Virus record (IMG/VR): IMGVR_UViG_3300045988_111917
Strand: one strand, 5' to 3'
DNA: 32,509 nucleotides
Source: a virus
Shown: positions 4,740-15,353 of the stretch, piece after piece
Layout of the letters: the number at the start of each line of letters is the position of its first letter
Numbering within the stretch: position 1 is the stretch's first letter
Made by a program: the position numbers and the translations under genes
The notes under the pieces: model-generated
Database searches by the model: none
Told to the model about the DNA's origin: nothing
The model's input: only the letters and a program-made list of their open reading frames with translations

Positions 4740-5279
4740 TCACACCTCCACCGCTGGCTGCGGAGCCTTCTGATGCTGATAGTGGCCGACCATGCCATAG
4801 GGTTTCATCGAGGCGGCGTTCAAGTATTCGAACGACACCTGTCCGATTCGCATGCCGGGCGTCAGCATGATGGGGAAACTGTTCTCGTTCTTCAGTTCGA
4901 CGGTGATGGTTCCGATGAATCCGGCGTCGATAAATCCTGCGGTAACGTGCGTGCAGAGTCCGAGTCGGCCAAGGCTGCTTTTTCCGTCGAACCGTGCCAT
5001 CATGTTGTCCGGGAGGCTGATTTTCTCTACGGTGGCGCCTAGGGCGAACTGTCCGGGCTGTAGCATGTAATGTCCGTCGATTCTGACGGTTTCGATGTGG
5101 ACGCCGTGCAGCGTGTGGTCGCCGCCGTCCGCGTAACCATCTTTCGTATCCATGGTGTAGATGGCGATGGTGTCCTGCAAGGTCACGTCATACGAGTTGG
5201 GGTTCAACTGTTTTTCCGTGTATGGCAGGATGAGGTCATGATGGTCCACGCACTGTTCGATGGTGATGTCGTTCAGCAT
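4740..5279 (-). CDS. dcd: dCTP deaminase / dUTPase-superfamily enzyme
   Basis: GKSSLGRLGLCTHVTAGFIDAGFIGTITVELKN...PGMRIGQVSF is the classic Dcd/Dut trimeric-fold motif set. ATG 5279 is preceded by AAGGAG. Confidence 0.85.
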   Translation of the reverse strand: MLNDITIEQCVDHHDLILPYTEKQLNPNSYDVTLQDTIAIYTMDTKDGYADGGDHTLHGVHIETVRIDGHYMLQPGQFALGATVEKISLPDNMMARFDGKSSLGRLGLCTHVTAGFIDAGFIGTITVELKNENSFPIMLTPGMRIGQVSFEYLNAASMKPYGMVGHYQHQKAPQPAVEV

Positions 5280-5290
5280 TTTCTTTCTCC

Positions 5291-5671
5291 TTACTTGTCG
5301 CAAAGGCGCTGCAACAGTTCCTTGTCGCTTATCGGTTTGATTTCATACAGGTACATTGCGCATGCGGATGGGTTTTCCATCTTCGCTTCGGCTGGGAACC
5401 GTTCTTTGAGTTCCTGCACTGTCATGTCGGTCAGCTTGGCGAACATGCTCCATGTCCAAGGGCTGGCCTCATAGTCGCCGAACTGGGTTTCCGAGAGGAT
5501 GATGGCGTTGCCGACGTGTACTCCGGTGGGGGCGTCGGAGAATACGAAGGCCACAGTCTCGTATGGCGATTGGGTTTCGCGGAGAATGAAGCTTGTCTCA
5601 CCGGATTCTATCTTCCGCCACTCCTCGCGACCTACTGTTAGTCGCGTCACATTGCGGTTGTCACTAGTCAT
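5291..5671 (-). CDS. Hypothetical protein (weak ASCH/PUA-like resemblance)
   Basis: 126 aa with SD GGAAAGGAAG. N-terminal LTVGREEWRKIESGETSFILRE is reminiscent of ASCH domains, but the match is weak. Confidence 0.55.
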   Translation of the reverse strand: MTSDNRNVTRLTVGREEWRKIESGETSFILRETQSPYETVAFVFSDAPTGVHVGNAIILSETQFGDYEASPWTWSMFAKLTDMTVQELKERFPAEAKMENPSACAMYLYEIKPISDKELLQRLCDK

Positions 5672-6107
5672 TGTTCTTCCTTTCCTGCATGAACGCGAGC
5701 GCCATTGCGAGGTAGGCGATGGCGTCTATGTATGAGTCTTCCCTGTTGTGGTCGTATTTGATGCGTTCGATTTTCAGTTCGGCCATCATGATTGCGACGT
5801 CAACTTCCGCATCGTCGCAGTCGAACCATCGTTTGGAAATGTTCTGGAACATGATGCGCGGATTGCCGTATTCTTCGGCCTTCTCCCCGTTGAGCATGTC
5901 ATTCACACGGACGAGGTTGTCGGCGATGCGCGTGTAGATGCTTGGCTCAATGTTTTCGAGCGTGTTTTCCACGGTCGGCGGCTCCGGCGGGTCGAGGATT
6001 ATGTCGCTCGGGCCTTTCGATCCGTGATTGTTGGCCGCTTTGGTGGGAATCGCCTTGTTCACGTCTTCCATCACCTCATCCCAATTGTTTTTCCTTGATG
6101 ATGTCAT
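5664..6107 (-). CDS. All-alpha MazG-like / DUF6378-like nucleotide pyrophosphohydrolase-family protein
   Basis: EEYGNPRIMFQNISKRWF....VDVAIMMAELKIERIKYDHNREDSYIDAIAYLAMAL follows the YG.P..F..I...W...M...K..R....h.eDS..D..(g)Y pattern of small phage MazG-like proteins. SD GGAAGGAAAA. Alternative ATG at 6071. Confidence 0.55.
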   Translation of the reverse strand: MTSSRKNNWDEVMEDVNKAIPTKAANNHGSKGPSDIILDPPEPPTVENTLENIEPSIYTRIADNLVRVNDMLNGEKAEEYGNPRIMFQNISKRWFDCDDAEVDVAIMMAELKIERIKYDHNREDSYIDAIAYLAMALAFMQERKNND

Positions 6108-7329
6108 CGAGTGTTTTCCTTCCTTCTATCACGTCCATGACTTTGCGGTTCCATGGCGTGTCCGGCACGAGTATGCGCTGCCGTCCCTGATAGGGACTGC
6201 CGCGTCGTACCAGTCTCCTGTTGGCCTGCTCCCAGTCGGCGTATGTCCATGGGAGGTCGAGCCATATCTGGTCTTTCATGAGACGTTGCAGGCCGTCCAC
6301 GCCGGTGCCCATGGATTGCGGGTTGGCGACTATGAGCCGGTACTTTCCTTGTTCTTGAGCGTCCATGGCGAAGAATGTCTTCGCATCGGTGCATGGCGCC
6401 CAAGTACGGTAGATTTCGTCTCTTACCGCTTTGAACCGCGTCCATACGAGCAGTGGTGTCTGGTCTTCGCGTCTCTTGGCTTCACTGTATACTGTTTCGA
6501 GTTTGGACACGCCGAACCAGTAGGATTCTCCACGGTCTTCGGTCTTGTAGGCGAAGCCATCGTCGAGTTGGGCGAGTTTGACCGCCGCGGCGCTCGCGCT
6601 TGCCGCGTACACGTCTTCGGCCAATTGGTGGGTGTTCGCCCACTGTTCCAGCGCCATGTCCTCCTGTTCGGTTTTCGGCGATGGGAGCCATTCGACTTGC
6701 GGCAGCGGGTTGCCGCCGCGTCGGATGTCCAATACGAGCTTCTGCAGTTGTCGGCACGCTTCCTCTACCATGGGCTGTGAATACGTGTATTTGACCACTG
6801 TACGCCCTTGCACGCTCATCGTATATGGTTTACCGTATCGCATCCTAAAAGCCCCTAGAGTGCGCCAAGAATCGCCTAACAGGTCTATCCTGTCCTTGGC
6901 GTGCGGATACATGACCACAGTCTGCCCGTACAGGTCTTCCAAATCCTTCGGAGCGGGCGTGCCGGTCAACATCAGCACGTCCTTGGCAAGGTCGCTGATG
7001 TCCTTCACGACTTTGGCACGTCCGCTCCTAGGATTCTTCACCATATGGCTTTCATCCACGATGAGACTGAAACCGTCCGGCACTTCGCCCAGCTTTGCGG
7101 CCATGTTGTAGGACACCACGAGGAAACGATAGTCTTCCGACCAGCCATGCTTCCGGTAGTCTTCGATGGTCAACGCCTTGCCGCGTGACCATTGGTCGAT
7201 TTGCGGCAACCACGCGGTCTTCACGACGCTTGCCGGACAGATGACGAGGATATGCTCTGCGTCGTCCAGCAAGTCCATGCTGCGTTTCGTCTTGCCTGTT
7301 CCGGCCTCGTCGAAAATGAAAGCCCTCAC
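6076..7329 (-). CDS. SNF2-family (SF2) DNA helicase/translocase
   Basis: Motif I DEAGTGKT, motif II IVDESHMVKN, LTGTP, and C-terminal QSMGTGVDGLQ...RRLVRRGS. GTG 7329 has a strong GGAAGGAG SD and overlaps the upstream stop (GTGA). The ORF-track ATG 7359 has no SD. Confidence 0.85.
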   Translation of the reverse strand: MRAFIFDEAGTGKTKRSMDLLDDAEHILVICPASVVKTAWLPQIDQWSRGKALTIEDYRKHGWSEDYRFLVVSYNMAAKLGEVPDGFSLIVDESHMVKNPRSGRAKVVKDISDLAKDVLMLTGTPAPKDLEDLYGQTVVMYPHAKDRIDLLGDSWRTLGAFRMRYGKPYTMSVQGRTVVKYTYSQPMVEEACRQLQKLVLDIRRGGNPLPQVEWLPSPKTEQEDMALEQWANTHQLAEDVYAASASAAAVKLAQLDDGFAYKTEDRGESYWFGVSKLETVYSEAKRREDQTPLLVWTRFKAVRDEIYRTWAPCTDAKTFFAMDAQEQGKYRLIVANPQSMGTGVDGLQRLMKDQIWLDLPWTYADWEQANRRLVRRGSPYQGRQRILVPDTPWNRKVMDVIEGRKTLDDIIKEKQLG

Positions 7330-7709
7330 CGAGTCTCCTTCCCATGCTCGGCTTCCCATGCCGCTATGCGCTCGCGTCCTTCCGGCGTTTTACGCCATCT
7401 GCGCCAAGTCTGATAGCAGACACCATGTTCAGCCTTGAATTTCTCCTGCCATCTGCGGCATGCGTCCCGGCTTTCCTTACGATGCTGTTTACGGTATCGC
7501 ACCCAATAGTCGAGCATTTTCTCGTGGTTCTCGTTAACCCACTTCTTTTGCAGCTTCCGCTTATGCTCCGCCTTTTCGGGTGTCATGTCGGCATAGCGGG
7601 TGACGGTCTTCTTTTTTCTGGCGGGCGGCATCGGCTTGGGCTGGCGCATCTCCTCGATGTCAGCCCAAGCCTCGCCGTCAAGCCATTCGGATACGCTACT
7701 CTTCATCAT
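7326..7709 (-). CDS. Basic Trp/Arg-rich hypothetical protein
   Basis: MMKSSVSEWLDGEAW...RRWQEKFKAEHGVCYQTWRRWRKTPEG. The start overlaps the end of the small TM gene. The upstream part of ORF 7326..7787 is better explained by that TM gene. Confidence 0.55.
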   Translation of the reverse strand: MMKSSVSEWLDGEAWADIEEMRQPKPMPPARKKKTVTRYADMTPEKAEHKRKLQKKWVNENHEKMLDYWVRYRKQHRKESRDACRRWQEKFKAEHGVCYQTWRRWRKTPEGRERIAAWEAEHGKETR

Positions 7710-11049: not shown

Positions 11050-11550
11050 TCAGACGCGCCAAAACATGTTGGAAACCCATACGCCATGCGAGTATTCAAT
11101 CGGCTCGCCCTCAAGCCATTTCAAACAGCCATGGGGGGTAATAAGCGCTACAAGTCCCTGACCCTTAAACACGGTGTCATCGTATCCGCTATCAATCCAC
11201 GCGTCAATCATGTTGCGGGAGTCTGACGCGTGCGGCCCTACCGTGTAGTCGCGTGCGATACCGTTATGCGCGACATAACCCCTATCCGTATGGAACGGAT
11301 GACAGTTGCGCGCCTCTACCGCGCCATGCGTGGCGAAACGAAAATGCATCAGGCATGGGGCGCGCTTGAGGCTATTCCAATGACTGTAGACGAAGCCAAC
11401 CACTTTCAGCGGGTCAACGTTTTTGAACACCCTCAACCGTTCGCCGTCCCACCAACTGACACCGCCCCCGTCCGGGTTCGTCTCGCTCATGGCTAGGATG
11501 TCTTCGGGTTCCGGCATTGCGCCGGGCGCTGCTGTTACGATGACACACAT
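11050..11550 (-). CDS. Class-II (Ntn, YafJ-like) glutamine amidotransferase / thiol peptidase-like protein
   Basis: Starts Met-Cys (MCVIV, the Cys nucleophile position). NCHPF and AHNGIA motifs are present. SD GAGGAA. The longer ORF-track version (to 11829) overlaps the upstream gene and is not needed. Confidence 0.8.
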   Translation of the reverse strand: MCVIVTAAPGAMPEPEDILAMSETNPDGGGVSWWDGERLRVFKNVDPLKVVGFVYSHWNSLKRAPCLMHFRFATHGAVEARNCHPFHTDRGYVAHNGIARDYTVGPHASDSRNMIDAWIDSGYDDTVFKGQGLVALITPHGCLKWLEGEPIEYSHGVWVSNMFWRV

Positions 11551-11606
11551 TGTTTGTTTTCCTCTTTCCATAATAGGGGGCAGGACGTTCCGGCTCCCGA
11601 AGATTT

Positions 11607-13223
11607 TCAGTCGTTGGCGCGCGTGGCGGCAATATCCTTGCGGATATGCGCGTAACGTTCGGACAGTTCGGGACGCCCGGCACGTTTGTACAGGCGCAAC
11701 GCGGTACGTTCCAACGACTCCACAGTCGGCCTGCCGTGTGACGCGCGTGCGATCCGACTGCGAACGATGTTCTTGACCACCCGCACGGCCGTCTCGCCAT
11801 GACGGTTCACATATTCGTGACCGTCCCAAACGGTCTCGTCGCCGTACGCATGGTGCAGGCGGAAACTGTAGAGGCTGATGGGCTCGACGCCCGCCATAGA
11901 CATGACGGTAGCCATCTGCGCGTAGTGGTGCAATGGGTGTAGGTTGCGGGACGGGAGCGCGTAGCAGAGTTCCGGGGCCGCCAGACGCCCTTCCACGAGC
12001 TTGCGGCCACGCTCGCGACGTTCCTTACGCCTGCGGTATTCAAGTGCGGCCGGAAGCGTGTCGCCATGACTGTGGCGTGCGATACGCGACGCCCCCACGT
12101 TGGCTTTGACGTTGCGACGGATTCTGGCGGCGCGTTCCAGATGCTCCCGCTCCTCTTCGGTTTTCCGTGCCGCCTTGACACTACGTGCGGCGGCGAGTCG
12201 TTCGTCGAGCGTGCGACGGGGCGTGTCGGTCACGTTGTCGGCCATGCATGACGCATACCGTTCGATAAAACTCGCCGATACCGTGCCACGGGGGTGTTTT
12301 TCAAAGAACCGCCACATGGCGCGTATCCACTTGACCGCAGGAACGAGCTTATTGGCGGTGCCCTCATACCAGCAGCCGAACGTGCGCAGTTCAATGGTAT
12401 CCGCATGCTCGTCGTTGACGGCCGTGTGCTTACCTGTATACTCGCCATGAGTGAGCGCGCACCAATAGTCGTCGTCGATGTGGCGCATGTTGAGCAGTCG
12501 GCACTGTGCCGCGTCCAGCCCGTGCAGTGCCCAATACCAGCGGCTTGCGCATTGGTTTGGCGTGCGCGCCACGTGGATATGGCCGCCCGCGTTATCGCCC
12601 CACTCCGGAATGCCCTCTACAATCCGCTTCAAGGCGGGTAGCCTGGACATGTCGAGGATATTGGACTGCAGTTCCACCCCGTTCCGCTCCAGTGACGCGT
12701 CCTTGCCCCAACCGGCAATGACGTCAGAGTTCGTCACGTTTTCCACGAAGTCGTCGGATAGTTCGGATTCAAGTTCAATCTCGACGCCGAAAGTGAATTG
12801 GTCCCCGTTTCCGAACGCGTACGGGTAGACGTAAGAGGGTTCCTTGATGTCCAGGAACGCTTCGGCGCCGCGATGTCGCGGGCAATAGTAGTCGCATGTC
12901 ATGCTACCCCCGCAGTAGTCGCACAGTACCGCGTCGCACCCGTAGGCGTCGCAGGAATAATACTCGCCACTATCCGGGTCGATCGGCGTGCCACATTGCG
13001 CGCACCATTCGTCCTCATCGTCGAGATCGCCCACGTTGTAGACGCGACGCATTCCACCACCATCGCCGAAGCGCACGTAGAACTCACTGCCGAATGCCAC
13101 GCATTCCGTGGTGCTGTCCGGCCACTTGCCGCGATACGCCTTATACAGGCGTTGCGCGTTACCGTCGCGCTCAATCCATTCGGCATACGGCTCGCCGCCC
13201 ATGATTGCGATACGTCCAGCCAT
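11607..13223 (-). CDS. Amidoligase_2-type (glutamine-synthetase-like COOH-NH2 ligase) protein with N-terminal Cys cluster and Arg-rich C-terminal repeat region
   Basis: FTFGVEIELES ... GKDASLERNGVELQS ... NAGGHIHVAR ... DTIELRTF reproduces the Amidoligase_2 motif order. There are 8 Cys between residues 74 and 114. SD AAGGAG. Confidence 0.8.
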   Translation of the reverse strand: MAGRIAIMGGEPYAEWIERDGNAQRLYKAYRGKWPDSTTECVAFGSEFYVRFGDGGGMRRVYNVGDLDDEDEWCAQCGTPIDPDSGEYYSCDAYGCDAVLCDYCGGSMTCDYYCPRHRGAEAFLDIKEPSYVYPYAFGNGDQFTFGVEIELESELSDDFVENVTNSDVIAGWGKDASLERNGVELQSNILDMSRLPALKRIVEGIPEWGDNAGGHIHVARTPNQCASRWYWALHGLDAAQCRLLNMRHIDDDYWCALTHGEYTGKHTAVNDEHADTIELRTFGCWYEGTANKLVPAVKWIRAMWRFFEKHPRGTVSASFIERYASCMADNVTDTPRRTLDERLAAARSVKAARKTEEEREHLERAARIRRNVKANVGASRIARHSHGDTLPAALEYRRRKERRERGRKLVEGRLAAPELCYALPSRNLHPLHHYAQMATVMSMAGVEPISLYSFRLHHAYGDETVWDGHEYVNRHGETAVRVVKNIVRSRIARASHGRPTVESLERTALRLYKRAGRPELSERYAHIRKDIAATRAND

Positions 13224-13554: not shown

Positions 13555-13596
13555 AATATATCACGACGGTATATCGTTGTCAATGTCGGCGTGTCG
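13555..13596 (-). promoter_or_regulatory. Early promoter cassette copy C
   Basis: The - strand reads CGACACGCCGACA TTGACA (13583-13578), 17 nt, TATATT (13560-13555), then ATCAACCAAGGAGGTAACA ATG. Confidence 0.7.
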
Positions 13597-13662: not shown

Positions 13663-13971
13663 TCATTGATGGCCTTGCGCAACCACGGCAACGTGACCCC
13701 CCTTGAAAACGTCGTCGGTCTGCGCCAGGAACTCCTTGACGTGCCGCAACGTCGTGGCGCTCAAGTATTCCATGCCGACCTCAACGCCGAAAACCTCCTG
13801 TTTGGTGTCCCACGCGCTGATCGGCGTGACCTTGGCGACCACAGTGCCGTATGACTTGAGCACGTACTGCGTGCCGTTTTCAGTGCCCCAACGTTCAACG
13901 AACGCCTTGCCGTAGAACGACTTGCGCCCGTCGTACAACGGTGTCAGCTCGAACATTCCATGATAGTTCAT
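13663..13971 (-). CDS. Early small protein B (102 aa), hypothetical
   Basis: MNYHGMFELTPLYDGRKSFYGKAFVERW...LKSYGTVVAKV...LSATTLRHVKEFL. ATG 13971 sits behind cassette copy B (AAGGAG SD). The ORF-track start 14061 would run through the promoter. Confidence 0.7.
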   Translation of the reverse strand: MNYHGMFELTPLYDGRKSFYGKAFVERWGTENGTQYVLKSYGTVVAKVTPISAWDTKQEVFGVEVGMEYLSATTLRHVKEFLAQTDDVFKGGHVAVVAQGHQ

Positions 13972-13999
13972 TTCAATCACTCCTTTGGTTGATGGTTCT

Positions 14000-14041
14000 A
14001 GTATACCGCACTTGATGTTGGTTGTCGAGTGCGGCGTGTCG
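14000..14041 (-). promoter_or_regulatory. Early promoter cassette copy B
   Basis: The - strand reads CGACACGCCGCAC TCGACA (14028-14023), 17 nt, TATACT (14005-14000), then ATCAACCAAAGGAGTGATTGAA ATG. Confidence 0.65.
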
Positions 14042-14042
14042 T

Positions 14043-14213
14043 TCAGGCGGTGGCCGCCCAACCGCCCTCAAGGTCGGCGTAGGCCTTAGGGTCTTCCGTG
14101 GTGGTCAGTGGCGTCAGCCCCCCGTCGCGGTAGGCGTAGACCTCACCCGCGCCGGTGATGAACACCCCCTCACCACCCTTGACGTATCCTTTGCCGTCCA
14201 GTGCCTTGTGCAT
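14043..14213 (-). CDS. Early small protein A (56 aa), hypothetical
   Basis: Hand translation gives MHKALDGKGYVKGGEGVFITGAGEVYAYRDGGLTPLTTTEDPKAYADLEGGWAATA. Lies behind cassette copy A with a GGAGG SD. Below the ORF-track cutoff. Confidence 0.55.
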   Translation of the reverse strand: MHKALDGKGYVKGGEGVFITGAGEVYAYRDGGLTPLTTTEDPKAYADLEGGWAATA

Positions 14214-14239: not shown

Positions 14240-14280
14240 AATATACCGCACTTAGCATCAAGTGTCAAGTCGGCGTGTCG
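14240..14280 (-). promoter_or_regulatory. Early promoter cassette copy A
   Basis: The - strand reads CGACACGCCGAC TTGACA (14268-14263), 17 nt, TATATT (14245-14240), then ATCAACCAAGGAGGTAAGGA ATG. Confidence 0.7.
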
Positions 14281-14390
14281 TGAGAATGATTCTCAATACC
14301 AACACCACAAGTGAACCGCGTTAATGGATGAACCGCGTTAATGGATGAACCCGGTTAATGAATGCCTAATGAGAACGATTCTCAATATCA
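14281..14390. repeat. Two 21-bp boxes (14281-14301, 14370-14390), each with a GAGAAY-G-ATTCTC palindrome, bracketing the iterons
   Basis: tgagaatgattctcaatacca versus tgagaacgattctcaatatca, 19/21 identical. The core GAGAATGATTCTC is a 6+1+6 palindrome, operator-like. Confidence 0.8.
14313..14363. repeat. 3 x 17-bp tandem direct repeats (iteron-like)
   Basis: gaaccgcgttaatggat / gaaccgcgttaatggat / gaacccggttaatgaat, head to tail. Confidence 0.9.
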
Positions 14391-14423
14391 GGGGGAGGCA
14401 CACCCCTCCCTAGGAGGGGGGGG
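14391..14423. other. G-run / C-run / G-run element able to form alternative hairpins
   Basis: gggggaggca-cccctcc-cta-ggagggg-gggg. CCCCTCC (14403-14409) pairs with GGAGGGG (14413-14419). Confidence 0.6.
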
Positions 14424-15082
14424 TCCCGAAACCGACACGCGCGAGGCCTCACCGCACGCCTTGCCATTTGCGCCGACGAGGGCGAACGGGTCATAGTCCC
14501 ATCTGAGAGCCATTCTTTGGGGCCTTGGACGGTCTTTCACGCCAAACCTTAATACTTTTACCTCCCGGCGCTGAAAGGCCCTCAGAGACGCCTTAATTCG
14601 ATTCGGACGGATGCCACGCCTCCGACAGATATGCGGCCATGGCTATCGCGCGGTCCGCCGCCCGTCCATCGACGGCCCATTTGCGTGACGCCGCTGTCGA
14701 ACGCCGGCGCGCGACGCCGCCAATCGAATTCCAGTGCGACACCGAACGTCGGTTGTGGACGGCCATGTGCGAAGGCGGCTCGCATCCCATCGCGGCCATG
14801 TGGTTGAGTGGCCGACTCGGTGGAATGCCGCGTCGATGTCTTGGTTTAGGCGAATTTCCAACGCTTGGCCTGTGGATAACTCAAGTTAGGGGTTATAAAT
14901 TCTGTGATGGAATTGTGAAGAGGCTTCGTGCTGAGGTGCGAATGTGACGAAAATCACAGTAATTTCGGGGTCAAATGGTCACATAATTTTTTGACTTTCG
15001 ATGCGTCATAGTGTATCACGCGTGCGCACGAGGCTGGCCCTCCCAAAGCCCAATAAGTGTAGTGTGTAAGTGTAGGTATATA

Positions 15083-15106
15083 TGGTGGTGGTGGTGGTGG
15101 TGGTGG
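15083..15106. repeat. (TGG)8 trinucleotide microsatellite
   Basis: tggtggtggtggtggtggtggtgg. This is the source of the artefactual poly-Val ORF 15082..15282. Confidence 0.95.
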
Positions 15107-15156
15107 CCTCTATATATATAAGAGGCGCGCACGCGCGCACACGCGCGCGTATACAC
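15107..15156. repeat. CCTCT-(AT)n-AGAGG hairpin followed by a 32-nt perfectly alternating purine/pyrimidine tract (Z-DNA-prone)
   Basis: cctctatatatataagagg, then gcgcgcacgcgcgcacacgcgcgcgtatacac (15125-15156) alternating R/Y without interruption. Confidence 0.9.
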
Positions 15157-15186
15157 CACTACCAGCATGGTTGTCAAGTCGTGTCA
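15148..15186 (-). promoter_or_regulatory. Possible fourth leftward promoter sharing the GACACG-GAC-TTGACA upstream module
   Basis: The - strand reads GTGACACGAC TTGACA (15177-15172), 18 nt, TATACG. An A/T-rich tract lies upstream. The -10 is poor and no ORF follows. Confidence 0.3.
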
Positions 15187-15206
15187 CATAAAAAGGGCAA
15201 AAAAAA

Positions 15207-15312
15207 AACCCTAGAACACTCGCCTACGCATCCTACGGACCACAAGGAGACTGGAAACCAGATGATTTCCGAAACACCGTAGTTGCGAACTCTTGGCGAG
15301 TGTGCTAGGGTT
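15207..15312. repeat. 18-bp inverted repeat (15207-15224 / 15295-15312, 17/18) separated by 70 nt
   Basis: AACCCTAGAACACTCGCC ... GGCGAGTGTGCTAGGGTT. The left arm is preceded by A10 (15199-15208). The right arm covers the spacer and -10 of the primase promoter. Confidence 0.85.
15283..15311 (+). promoter_or_regulatory. Candidate rightward promoter for the primase-helicase operon
   Basis: TTGCGA (15283-15288), 17 nt, TAGGGT (15306-15311; TANNNT type), 42 nt before ATG 15354 with SD GAAGGAG. Confidence 0.5.
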
Positions 15313-15353
15313 GGATTACCAACAAAAACAACTATACCACGAAGGAGACGACC

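What the first reader, a model, noticed from the sequence alone, without database searches (positions are those of the whole stretch)
11050..13223. Early-expressed amidoligase plus Ntn amidotransferase/thiol-peptidase pair: candidate macromolecule-modification system
The first large gene of the early arm carries the Amidoligase_2 (glutamine-synthetase-fold COOH-NH2 ligase) motif series: GVEIE, D.S...G.E.QS, GGHIHV, ELR. The next gene starts Met-Cys and has NCHPF/HNG motifs, as in class-II (Ntn) glutamine amidotransferase-like thiol peptidases.

This ligase/GAT-like pairing is the conserved neighbourhood noted for the Amidoligase_2 family in comparative genomics (Iyer et al. 2009). It was predicted there to make peptide or gamma-glutamyl-type adducts, by analogy with the GS-fold Pup ligase. 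As far as I know it has not been characterised biochemically in a phage.

Here the pair sits directly after the three immediate-early cassettes and before the recombination genes. The same arm also encodes dCTP deaminase and a MazG-like protein. Plausible roles are modification of phage DNA or nucleotides, tagging or inactivation of a host (defence?) protein, or synthesis or destruction of a small signalling molecule.
Basis: partly seen in the sequence, partly recalled or inferred. Interest (0 to 1): 0.65.

Follow-up and report, generated by a model that had tools for sequence, protein, structure and literature searches.

The report
Bifidobacterium phage ligase–amidohydrolase gene pair
A gut Bifidobacterium phage carries a conserved gene pair, a glutamine-synthetase-like ATP-dependent ligase followed by a small cysteine amidohydrolase, that probably attaches and trims a glutamate-type tag on an unknown target. 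It is a compact, unannotated variant of a phage enzyme pairing predicted in 2009 whose function is still unknown.

Summary
Both genes lie on the minus strand.

ORF-A (11607-13223, 538 aa) gets no direct Pfam hit. It is still a divergent Amidoligase_2 / glutamine-synthetase-fold ligase. The evidence is a profile-profile match (97% probability, E 5e-11), three intermediate sequences that pass Pfam's threshold, fold matches to glutamine synthetases, Dop and about 40 viral amidoligases, and an invariant motif set.

ORF-B (11050-11550, 166 aa) is a minimal class-II (Ntn) amidotransferase domain (GATase_4). Cys2, Arg71, Asn96-Gly97 and Asp110 are invariant in 17 divergent partners.

The two genes are adjacent in about 30 uncultured phage contigs, in several distant metagenome loci and in 6 of 6 Bifidobacterium genomes, where they sit in integrative elements. 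Both are under purifying selection.

ORF-A also carries a cross-brace zinc finger and, in phages only, a C-terminal helical domain. The window has none of the other genes of the canonical phage amidoligase cluster and no base-modification genes.

All eight cultured relatives have a broken ligase (three independent lesions) but an intact ORF-B.

The function is inferred, not shown. The most likely reading is a gamma-glutamyl-type writer/eraser acting on a macromolecule. I classify it as a new variant of a known, uncharacterised kind, of moderate interest.

The parts
11607..13223 (-). ORF-A, 538 aa. A multidomain glutamine-synthetase-fold carboxylate-amine ligase, a divergent member of the Amidoligase_2 superfamily.
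   Evidence: ORF listing. hhalign of the family against canonical Amidoligase_2: probability 97.1%, E 5e-11. Foldseek top hits are glutamine synthetases and Dop. About 40 viral 'amidoligase' models match in BFVD. dN/dS is 0.16-0.29.
13029..13223 (-). ORF-A residues 1-65: an N-terminal helix plus beta-hairpin region of unknown role. It occurs in only some long-form homologues.
   Evidence: AF2 model, pLDDT about 60-75. Alignments.
12870..13016 (-). ORF-A residues 70-118: a Cys-rich binuclear cross-brace zinc finger with ligands C74, C77, C91, C96, C101, C104, C114 and H117. It is the likely target-recognition module.
   Evidence: The cysteines are invariant or nearly so. The family profile matches PHD/FYVE/RING-type fingers, for example UHRF1 PHD at E 3e-4. 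Other members give B-box and Siva-like Pfam hits.
12228..12842 (-). ORF-A residues 128-332: the catalytic core. Invariant residues are G146, E148, E150, S177 (D175 is nearly invariant), E184, G213-G214-H215-x-H217, R220, R247, N270, E278 and R280.
   Evidence: Invariant columns in A3 and A6. The same columns are invariant in canonical Amidoligase_2 and align in register. pLDDT is mostly 85-97 across the core.
11610..12221 (-). ORF-A residues 335-538: a long helix plus a small alpha/beta domain. It is present only in the phage 'long' forms and is always fused to the ligase.
   Evidence: AF2 secondary structure. A local HMM finds this domain only in ligase ORFs of phage-type loci.
12063..12101 (-). 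First copy of the repeated motif N-x3-S-R-x-A-R-x-S-H-G (residues 375-387). Its function is unknown.
   Evidence: Regex and alignments. It is conserved even in the most distant long forms.
11733..11771 (-). Second copy of the same motif (residues 485-497).
11050..11550 (-). ORF-B, 166 aa. A minimal class-II (Ntn) glutamine-amidotransferase-type cysteine amidohydrolase (GATase_4). The nucleophile is Cys2. Arg71, Asn96-Gly97 and Asp110 form a glutamine / gamma-glutamyl pocket.
   Evidence: Pfam PF13230, 30.9 bits against a cut-off of 23. AF2 pLDDT 95. Foldseek matches the GlmS glutaminase domain, EgtC (TMq up to 0.72) and PurF. Residue register against GlmS. Invariant residues in 17 partners. 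dN/dS is 0.09-0.22.
11561..11569 (-). Shine-Dalgarno-like GGAAAGAGG, 10 nt upstream of the ORF-B ATG. The gap to the ORF-A stop is 56 nt and contains no terminator-like site, which implies co-transcription.
   Evidence: Sequence. Terminator scan. In distant loci the two genes overlap or abut.
13555..13583 (-). Nearest upstream sigma-70-like promoter match (TTGACA, 17-nt spacer containing TG, TATATT). It is a possible promoter for the transcript that carries the pair.
   Evidence: Consensus scan only. Not evidence of function.

Best explanation
**What it is.** The two genes form a self-contained accessory module of Bifidobacterium mobile elements (phages and integrative elements).

**ORF-A.** It is an active ATP-dependent ligase of the glutamine-synthetase fold. 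It activates a carboxylate as an acyl-phosphate and joins it to an amine. Its fused PHD/RING-like zinc finger suggests that the acceptor is a macromolecule, most likely a protein.

**ORF-B.** It is an active N-terminal-cysteine amidohydrolase. Its pocket keeps the residues that class-II amidotransferases use to hold the free alpha-amino and alpha-carboxylate of glutamine.

**Most likely mechanism (inferred).** ORF-A joins free L-glutamate through its gamma-carboxylate to an amine on a host or phage target, giving a gamma-glutamyl amide. ORF-B recognises that gamma-glutamyl head group and removes or limits the tag. This would be a writer/eraser pair analogous to EgtA/EgtC, PuuA/PuuD or PafA/Dop.

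**Biological role (inferred).** It is used when the element enters or takes over the cell, for host takeover, counter-defence or conflict between elements. It is conditionally dispensable or costly.

**Shown versus inferred.** Fold, family, intact catalytic residues, gene linkage, purifying selection and distribution are shown. Substrate, product, target and role are inferred.
For: **Ligase identity.**
- The family profile finds three proteins that pass the PF12224 threshold.
- hhalign against canonical Amidoligase_2: 97.1% probability, E 5e-11, with all motifs in register.
- Fold matches to glutamine synthetases (E 4e-5), Dop and viral amidoligases.
- The acidic/His/Arg motif residues are invariant in both families. 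Their role as metal and ATP ligands is assumed by analogy with GS.

**Hydrolase identity and pocket.**
- Pfam GATase_4 hit above the cut-off.
- Best structural matches include EgtC, a stand-alone gamma-glutamyl-amide hydrolase.
- Arg71 and Asn96-Gly97 align with GlmS Arg73 and Asn98-Gly99; Asp110 is matched to GlmS Asp123 by motif position, since the printed alignment ends before it.
- Cys2, Arg71, Asn96, Gly97 and Asp110 are invariant in 17 partners.

**Functional coupling.**
- ORF-B lies directly downstream of the ligase in about 30 phage contigs and in distant loci, and in 6 of 6 Bifidobacterium genomes. The genes often overlap or abut.

**Glutamyl chemistry in relatives.**
- Canonical phage clusters combine Amidoligase_2 with GAT-II, RimK-like ATP-grasp, a second ligase family annotated COOH-NH2 ligase, and AIG2 gamma-glutamyl cyclotransferase.
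- A Bacillus phage pairs the amidoligase with a gamma-glutamyl cyclotransferase.

**Macromolecular target.**
- Cross-brace zinc finger fused to the ligase.

**Accessory, element-linked role.**
- The pair sits next to an integrase and DUF3846, next to UmuDC, a resolvase and a toxin-antitoxin pair, and next to Abi_2.
- The ligase is broken in all cultured isolates, yet dN/dS is about 0.2 in uncultured genomes.
Against: - No substrate, product or target has been observed.
- Nothing in the sequence proves that the carboxylate donor is glutamate.
- The same GAT pocket would equally bind free glutamine. Translational coupling fits a two-subunit amidotransferase just as well.
- In LUZ24-type clusters GAT-II and gamma-glutamyl cyclotransferase occur together, so they are not simple alternatives as erasers.
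- The zinc-finger matches are weak and biased by cysteine content. Such a finger could bind nucleic acid instead of protein.
- A sub-clade of the ligase (L040, L041) has no adjacent GAT.
- The pattern in cultured isolates rests on only three independent lineages. The TGA that replaces the Trp codon in BA720P3 could be read through at a low level.
Confidence: 0.4

Rival explanations
1. Split glutamine-dependent amidotransferase. ORF-B hydrolyses free glutamine and passes ammonia to ORF-A. ORF-A then amidates an ATP-activated carboxylate (R-COOH to R-CONH2) on a protein, a cell-wall precursor or a metabolite.
For: - ORF-B keeps the complete glutamine-binding and catalytic set of true class-II amidotransferases.
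- It has no acceptor domain of its own, being only 166 aa.
- The genes are adjacent, co-oriented and often overlapping, as expected for subunits of one enzyme.
- The chemistry of the GS fold naturally uses ammonia as the amine. This last point is established knowledge of glutamine synthetase.
Against: - To my knowledge, no GS-fold enzyme is known to take ammonia from a GAT-II partner.
- The characterised stand-alone GATase_4 protein I know of, EgtC, is a gamma-glutamyl-amide hydrolase and not an ammonia donor (structural match).
- Alternative partners of Amidoligase_2 in other phages are gamma-glutamyl cyclotransferases, which cannot supply ammonia.
- ORF-B stays intact in all three lineages that lost the ligase. 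This is only weak evidence.
Confidence: 0.25
2. Small-molecule enzyme pair. The ligase makes a gamma-glutamyl or peptide-like metabolite, or inactivates an amine- or carboxylate-bearing host metabolite or immune signal. ORF-B processes that compound.
For: - The Amidoligase_2 family was originally predicted to make peptide-derived metabolites. That is how Iyer et al. 2009 is cited in PMC10580990 and PMC11706807.
- Analogous GS-like plus hydrolase pairs act on small amines (PuuA/PuuD, EgtA/EgtC). This is established knowledge.
- The module is only two genes and moves between elements.
Against: - A fused, variable array of cross-brace zinc fingers and a 200-residue helical extension are unusual for a small-molecule enzyme.
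- No transporter or further tailoring genes are linked to the pair.
Confidence: 0.15
3. Phage DNA or nucleotide hypermodification. The pair adds or amidates an amino-acid-type group on a base.
For: - Amidoligase and amidotransferase genes co-occur with thymidine-hypermodification clusters in viral metagenomes (PMC8989533).
- The pair sits beside the recombination and replication genes, and the arm encodes a dCTP deaminase.
Against: - None of the major ORFs of the window scanned against Pfam matches a hydroxymethylase, 5-HMUDK kinase, aGPT-Pplase, DpdA/QueC-type gene or DNA polymerase.
- The same pair occurs alone in integrative or plasmid-like elements.
- Eight cultured relatives propagate with the ligase destroyed.
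Confidence: 0.07

Closest known systems
Pfam Amidoligase_2 (PF12224), the GS-like 'COOH-NH2 ligase' group of Iyer et al. 2009. Phage examples: LUZ24 gp18, UFV-P2 ORF23, Kuravirus LAMP gp84.
   Same: - Same fold and the same invariant motif series: GxExE, DxS...E, HxH, N, ExR.
- Same neighbourhood with a class-II GAT-like gene.
- Also phage-borne, and also uncharacterised.
   Different: - No direct PF12224 hit; ORF-A is 0 for 1 at E<=1.
- It has an extra N-terminal region, a cross-brace zinc finger and a 200-aa C-terminal domain.
- The family is narrow: 70 representatives among 1.84 billion proteins, with genome hits only in Bifidobacterium.
- The partner GAT is a minimal 166-aa GATase_4, not a GAT-II protein of about 390-850 aa.
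- No ATP-grasp, COOH-NH2_lig or AIG2 genes accompany it.
EgtA / EgtC of mycobacterial ergothioneine biosynthesis: a gamma-glutamyl-cysteine ligase, which I recall as GS-fold (not tested here), plus a GATase_4 Ntn hydrolase that later removes the gamma-glutamyl group.
   Same: - Same pair of enzyme types, assuming EgtA is GS-fold as I recall.
- EgtC is among the best structural matches of ORF-B, with TMq up to 0.72, and also matches at the sequence level through NCBIfam TIGR03442.
- It offers the logic of a transient gamma-glutamyl tag.
   Different: - ORF-B scores far below the EgtC equivalog cut-off: 30.5 bits against 218.65.
- It is about 60 residues shorter.
- No EgtB or EgtD genes are present.
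- The ligase belongs to a different GS-fold family and carries a zinc finger.
PafA / Dop pupylation system of Actinobacteria.
   Same: - A GS-fold ligase that joins a gamma-carboxylate of glutamate to protein lysines, together with an opposing amidase activity.
- Dop is a structural match of ORF-A at E 8e-3.
- The host phylum is the same.
   Different: - In pupylation the eraser (Dop) is itself a GS-fold enzyme, not an Ntn hydrolase.
- No Pup-like tag gene is present here.
- The ORF-B pocket needs a free alpha-amino group, which Pup's C-terminal residue lacks. This last point is an inference.
Class-II (Ntn) glutamine amidotransferase domains of GlmS and PurF, and YafJ-type stand-alone proteins (PDB 3mdn, 1te5).
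   Same: - Met-Cys start, Arg, Asn-Gly oxyanion hole and Asp all present.
- Ntn fold.
   Different: - No fused synthase domain.
- 166 aa against about 230-270 aa.
- Encoded by mobile elements as the second gene of a ligase operon.

Membership tests
Amidoligase_2 (PF12224) | Direct match to the Pfam HMM above the gathering score (22 bits) | tested here: not met
   hmmscan of ORF-A at E<=1 lists only C1_2 and DinB noise. 25 of the 28 family members scanned also fail.
Amidoligase_2 (PF12224) | Homology to bona fide members by profile methods | tested here: met
   The family profile finds P0247, P0248 and P0249 (E 4e-4 to 8e-4 against 1.84e9 proteins). These score 25.7, 59.2 and 35.9 bits on PF12224. 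hhalign of A6 against A5 (8 annotated or Pfam-assigned phage amidoligases plus those 3): probability 97.1%, E 5e-11, 138 columns.
Amidoligase_2 (PF12224) | Conserved catalytic motif series of the GS fold (GxExE; DxS...E; HxH; N; ExR) | tested here: met
   Invariant G146, E148, E150, S177, E184, H215, H217, N270, E278 and R280 in A6. The equivalent columns are invariant in canonical members and aligned in register.
Amidoligase_2 (PF12224) | Glutamine-synthetase-like fold | tested here: met
   AF2 core pLDDT is mostly 85-97. Foldseek against PDB: glutamine synthetases at E 4e-5 to 3e-4 with probability 0.97-1.0, and Dop. BFVD: about 40 hits at E<=1e-3, many of them named amidoligase.
Amidoligase_2 (PF12224) | Gene neighbourhood with a GAT-like thiol peptidase or an AIG2 cyclotransferase (as I recall the family description) | tested here: met
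   The GAT gene is directly downstream in nearly all loci. The canonical association was verified in LUZ24, UFV-P2, LAMP, LAh_6, DES1, the Vibrio phage and CVT22 and in Bacillus phage M2.
Amidoligase_2 (PF12224) | ATP-dependent carboxylate-amine ligase activity | not testable with these tools
   No biochemical data exist for any family member in the literature searched.
Class-II (Ntn) glutamine amidotransferase, GATase_4 (PF13230) | Match to the Pfam HMM above the gathering score (23 bits) | tested here: met
   30.9 bits, E 1.7e-7. Most homologues carry a precomputed PF13230 assignment.
Class-II (Ntn) glutamine amidotransferase, GATase_4 (PF13230) | N-terminal nucleophile Cys directly after the initiator Met | tested here: met
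   MCVI start in 17 of 17 divergent partners. An SD-like sequence precedes the ATG.
Class-II (Ntn) glutamine amidotransferase, GATase_4 (PF13230) | Glutamine-binding Arg, Asn-Gly oxyanion hole, and Asp for the alpha-amino group | tested here: met
   R71 and N96-G97 align with GlmS R73 and N98-G99. D110 is matched to GlmS D123 by motif position only, because the printed alignment ends before it. All are invariant.
Class-II (Ntn) glutamine amidotransferase, GATase_4 (PF13230) | Four-layer alpha-beta-beta-alpha Ntn fold | tested here: met
   AF2 pLDDT 95.1, pTM 0.90. Foldseek matches GlmS, EgtC and PurF with probability 1.0 and TMq 0.57-0.72.
Class-II (Ntn) glutamine amidotransferase, GATase_4 (PF13230) | Fused acceptor (synthase) domain, as in complete amidotransferases | tested here: not met
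   ORF-B is 166 aa and a single domain. It is therefore a stand-alone hydrolase or a separate subunit.
Canonical phage amidoligase cluster (COOH-NH2_lig + Amidoligase_2 + GAT-II + ATP-grasp + AIG2) | Co-occurrence of ATP-grasp, COOH-NH2_lig and AIG2/GGCT genes | tested here: not met
   Pfam scans of the major ORFs of the window found none of these. Only the two-gene core is present.
Phage thymidine or deazaguanine hypermodification pathways | Presence of a base-precursor enzyme (dUMP hydroxymethylase, 5-HMUDK, aGPT-Pplase, DpdA/QueC) | tested here: not met
   No such Pfam hits in the window. Only a dCTP deaminase-like gene is present.
Known anti-phage defence systems (PADLOC-DB 2.0) | Match of either protein to a defence-system model | tested here: not met
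   No hits at E<=0.01 for ORF-A, ORF-B, their neighbours or two short-form homologues.

The most novel reading that the evidence does not exclude
The pair is a phage- and ICE-encoded protein-tagging system. It would be a pupylation-like gamma-glutamyl (or other aminoacyl) writer, guided by a PHD/RING-like zinc finger, with a dedicated Ntn eraser. The system would rewire or disarm a Bifidobacterium host factor at entry. Its activity would be sensed or costly in some hosts, which would explain why every cultured isolate has lost the ligase. This would be the first assigned function for the phage Amidoligase_2/GAT modules, which occur in at least 306 phage records.
Probability: 0.15. Interest if true: 0.85.

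Novelty: new variant of a known kind. Interest (0 to 1): 0.55.

Why it matters
**An open question since 2009.** Amidoligase_2 genes, usually beside a GAT gene, are annotated in hundreds of phage genomes: LUZ24-like, Kuravirus, Zobellviridae, marine HMO-2011/OM43 types and archaeal viruses. The pairing was predicted in 2009 to make peptide tags or metabolites, and papers from 2023-2025 still call its function unknown.

**Why this version helps.** It is the smallest form seen here, just two genes.
- It is invisible to standard annotation. All homologues are labelled 'hypothetical'.
- It is common in human-gut Bifidobacterium phages. Hundreds of near-identical proteins occur in metagenomes.
- It is also carried by Bifidobacterium integrative elements.
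- Natural ligase-null isolates already exist in culture alongside uncultured intact genomes. That gives a ready genetic contrast for finding the target.

**Payoff.** If the target is a host protein or a defence factor, this would add a new chemistry to phage-host conflict. If not, the result is still a corrected annotation for a widespread gut-phage gene pair.

Tried and rejected
**Searches of ORF-A that gave nothing or only weak hits.**
- Pfam, NCBIfam, PADLOC and PDB sequences gave nothing useful.
- PHROGs gave only one weak hit, to a family of unknown function.

**Literature.**
- The Iyer et al. 2009 paper (PMC3268129) is not held. Its content is cited second-hand or from memory.
- Searches for 'amidoligase' with anti-defence terms, and for the GAT / ATP-grasp / GGCT combination, found no functional study.

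'Early expression' could therefore not be tested.

**Ideas tested and dropped.**
- Third conserved partner gene: the flanking 127-aa and 92-aa genes are conserved only within the close phage group. The DUF8033-like 132-aa gene recurs upstream of the ligase in two distant loci. The link is loose.
- C-terminal domain encoded separately in short-form loci: not found.
- Alternative eraser next to the GAT-less sub-clade (L040, L041): the neighbours have no Pfam hits.
- 'MazG-like' neighbour: not confirmed. It is DUF6378 with no PDB match.
- DNA-modification reading: kept only as a low-probability rival, for the reasons given under that rival.


Full report
**Setting.** The window is essentially a complete siphovirus genome of about 32.5 kb.
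- The region of the finding is 76% identical in nucleotide sequence to Bifidobacterium phages BA720P3 and BA746P1.
- A rightward arm encodes Prim-Pol/helicase, terminase, tail tube, tape measure and Dit.
- A leftward arm runs from about 14270 down to about 4740. It starts with small genes preceded by sigma-70-like sites at 14268, 14028 and 13583. The two genes of the finding come next.
- After them come a 127-aa unknown, Erf, a gp2.5-like SSB, an HTH protein, a 92-aa unknown, a VRR-NUC-like nuclease, a RecE/YqaJ-like exonuclease, an SNF2 helicase, DUF6378 and a dCTP deaminase-like protein.

**Observation.**
- ORF-A is 11607..13223 on the minus strand, 538 aa.
- ORF-B is listed mechanically as 11050..11829 with a TTG start. 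It really begins at the ATG at 11550 (MCVIV...), behind GGAAAGAGG. It is 166 aa.
- All 17 divergent homologues I extracted begin at the same Met-Cys.

**ORF-B is a class-II (Ntn) amidotransferase-type domain.**
- It scores 30.9 bits on Pfam GATase_4, above the cut-off of 23.
- It folds with pLDDT 95.
- Its structural matches are the GlmS glutaminase domain, EgtC (TMq up to 0.72) and PurF.
- A profile alignment to E. coli GlmS puts Arg71, Thr74 and Asn96-Gly97 on GlmS Arg73, Thr76 and Asn98-Gly99.
- Asp110 sits in an S-D-S-R motif at the position of the GlmS Asp that binds the alpha-amino group. I matched this residue by motif position, since the printed alignment ends before it.
- Cys2, Arg71, Thr74, His75, Gly76, Asn82, His95, Asn96, Gly97 and Asp110 are invariant in 17 partners. 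The more distant of those partners share only about 46-54% identity with ORF-B.
- The protein has no acceptor domain.

**ORF-A is a divergent Amidoligase_2 / GS-fold ligase.**
- Direct searches fail: Pfam, NCBIfam and PDB sequences.
- A profile of the core (residues 122-340) was run against 1.84 billion representative proteins and found only 70 hits.
- The three weakest full hits (P0247, P0248, P0249) pass the Pfam Amidoligase_2 threshold themselves.
- I built an alignment of eight annotated or Pfam-assigned phage amidoligases (UFV-P2, LUZ24, LAMP, LAh_6, Vibrio 1.293.O, CVT22, DES1, Bacillus M2) plus those three.
- I compared it with 23 family members. hhalign gives 97.1% probability and E 5e-11 over 138 columns.
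- In that alignment GxExE, DxSL...E, HxH, N and ExR line up on the columns that are invariant in both families.
- The AF2 model has a core pLDDT mostly of 85-97. It matches glutamine synthetases (E 4e-5) and the depupylase Dop in the PDB.
- It also matches about 40 viral proteins in BFVD, many of them named amidoligase.
- ORF-A is therefore a member of the superfamily, but it lies outside the current Pfam model.

**Extra domains of ORF-A.**
- Residues 70-118 hold eight conserved Zn ligands.
- The family profile matches PHD/FYVE/RING-type cross-brace fingers, for example UHRF1 PHD at E 3e-4.
- Other members carry several such units and give B-box or Siva-like hits.
- One BFVD amidoligase relative is annotated 'LIM domain'.
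- Residues 335-538 form a long helix plus a small alpha/beta domain.
- That region contains two copies of the motif N-x3-S-R-x-A-R-x-S-H-G.
- This extension is found only fused to the ligase in phage-type loci. The short forms in bacterial genomes lack it.

**Linkage, selection and distribution.**
- A local HMM search shows the GAT gene directly downstream of the ligase in about 30 IMG/VR contigs.
- The same holds in distant metagenome loci whose ligases share only 28-39% identity with ORF-A: L032-L036, L038, L039 and L042/43.
- It also holds in 6 of 6 Bifidobacterium genomes: B. saguini, B. margollesii, B. asteroides, B. tissieri, B. callimiconis and B. vansinderenii.
- The two genes often overlap or abut.
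- Only one ligase sub-clade, seen in L040 and L041, lacks the GAT.
- The chromosomal copies lie in mobile contexts. L057 has a tyrosine integrase and DUF3846. L038 has UmuDC, a resolvase and RelB/YafQ. L055 has Abi_2 about 800 bp away.
- Against the window, dN/dS is 0.16-0.29 for the ligase and 0.09-0.22 for the GAT across the IMG/VR genomes. 26 ligase ORFs are intact.

**An unexpected pattern in cultured phages.** All eight cultured relatives in GenBank lack an intact ligase, through three independent lesions.

| Isolates | Lesion in the ligase |
|---|---|
| BA720P3, BA746P1 | TGG to TGA at invariant Trp304 |
| BP677P1-4 and P8 | 2-nt insertion after codon 255 |
| BP742P1 | internal deletion of codons about 62-456 |

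- ORF-B keeps its full length and its Met-Cys start in all three lineages.
- Counted by lineage, 3 of 3 cultured lineages are broken against about 2-3 of 30 uncultured genomes (Fisher p about 0.002-0.004).
- The sample is small, and the TGA could be read through as Trp at a low level.
- The pattern nevertheless argues that the ligase is dispensable, and possibly disadvantageous, on the isolation hosts, while it is maintained in nature.

**Mechanism.** What is shown is two catalytically intact enzymes, co-transcribed and co-inherited as a mobile two-gene unit. The rest is inference.
- The GAT pocket requires a glutamine-like or gamma-glutamyl head group with free alpha-amino and alpha-carboxylate groups.
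- Relatives of the ligase are surrounded by glutamyl-chemistry enzymes: a RimK-like ATP-grasp, a second ligase family annotated COOH-NH2 ligase, and AIG2 gamma-glutamyl cyclotransferase.
- The zinc finger points to a macromolecular acceptor.
- I therefore favour (0.4) a gamma-glutamyl-type writer/eraser acting on a host or phage macromolecule when the element establishes itself.
- The main rival (0.25) is a split glutamine-dependent amidotransferase.
- A small-molecule role (0.15) and DNA or nucleotide hypermodification (0.07) are less likely.
- The DNA reading is weakened in three ways. The window has no base-precursor enzymes. The pair occurs alone in integrative elements. Isolates with a null ligase are viable.

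**Comparison with what is known.**
- The Amidoligase_2/GAT association is known from comparative genomics and is common. 306 phage records carry a canonical Amidoligase_2.
- Recent papers still describe its function as unexplored, and I found no biochemical study.
- This locus differs in five ways: it lies outside the Pfam model, it has added zinc-finger and C-terminal domains, its GAT is a minimal GATase_4, it lacks the other cluster genes, and so far it is seen only in Bifidobacterium elements.

**Verdict.** It is a new variant of a known but uncharacterised kind, of moderate interest (0.55).

Noticed in passing
L001 (BA720P3) 7405-7407; L044 (BP677P2) about 2711-2717; L059 (BP742P1) 2318-2790. 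These correspond to window 11607-13223.: Every cultured GenBank relative has an inactivated ligase gene through three independent lesions: TGA at Trp304, a 2-nt insertion after codon 255, and deletion of codons about 62-456. The adjacent GAT gene stays intact. Most uncultured genomes keep the ligase intact and under purifying selection.
   Followed up: yes
window 14270-15350: The divergent intergenic region between the two arms holds several simple-sequence features: a 17-bp direct repeat (TGAACCGCGTTAATGGA, 3.1 copies) at 14312-14364, (TGG)8 at 15083-15106, an alternating GC/GT purine-pyrimidine tract at 15125-15148, and an A10 run at 15199-15209. These may be operator, origin or switch elements.
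   Followed up: partly
window 13663-14061 (-); L034 5566-5928; L041 1734-2069: The 132-aa early protein (phrog_4264) is homologous to the DUF8033 protein that sits directly upstream of the ligase in a distant phage (L034). DUF8033 also precedes the GAT-less ligase in L041. It may be a loose third associate of the module.
   Followed up: partly
window 12063-12101 and 11733-11771 (ORF-A residues 375-387 and 485-497): The motif N-x3-S-R-x-A-R-x-S-H-G occurs twice, each time at the C-terminal end of a long helix. The first copy is conserved even in long-form homologues sharing about 30% identity. No known domain matches it, and it occurs in no other ORF of the window.
   Followed up: partly
L026 928-2076 (IMG/VR 3300029616_000099); proteins P0162, P0177: Natural deletion variants fuse the ligase core (up to about residue 334) in frame to the C-terminal half of the GAT. 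This removes the ligase C-terminal domain and the GAT's N-terminal Cys.
   Followed up: partly
L055 (B. asteroides) 5931-6914; L057 (B. callimiconis) 5263-6114 and 11179-11760; L038 1-4711: The chromosomal or plasmid-like copies of the pair sit beside an Abi_2 abortive-infection gene, a tyrosine integrase plus DUF3846, and UmuDC / resolvase / RelB-YafQ respectively. The module therefore travels on integrative or conjugative-type elements as well as on phages.
   Followed up: partly
The dCTP deaminase-like gene is confirmed. None of the major ORFs scanned matched a DNA polymerase, thymidylate synthase, integrase or repressor family.
   Followed up: partly
L046-L052 (UFV-P2, LUZ24, LAMP, LAh_6, Vibrio 1.293.O, CVT22, DES1): In phages of Proteobacteria the canonical Amidoligase_2 gene is always preceded by a conserved hypothetical gene of about 190-220 aa. 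In most of them it lies close to a primase/helicase gene.
   Followed up: no
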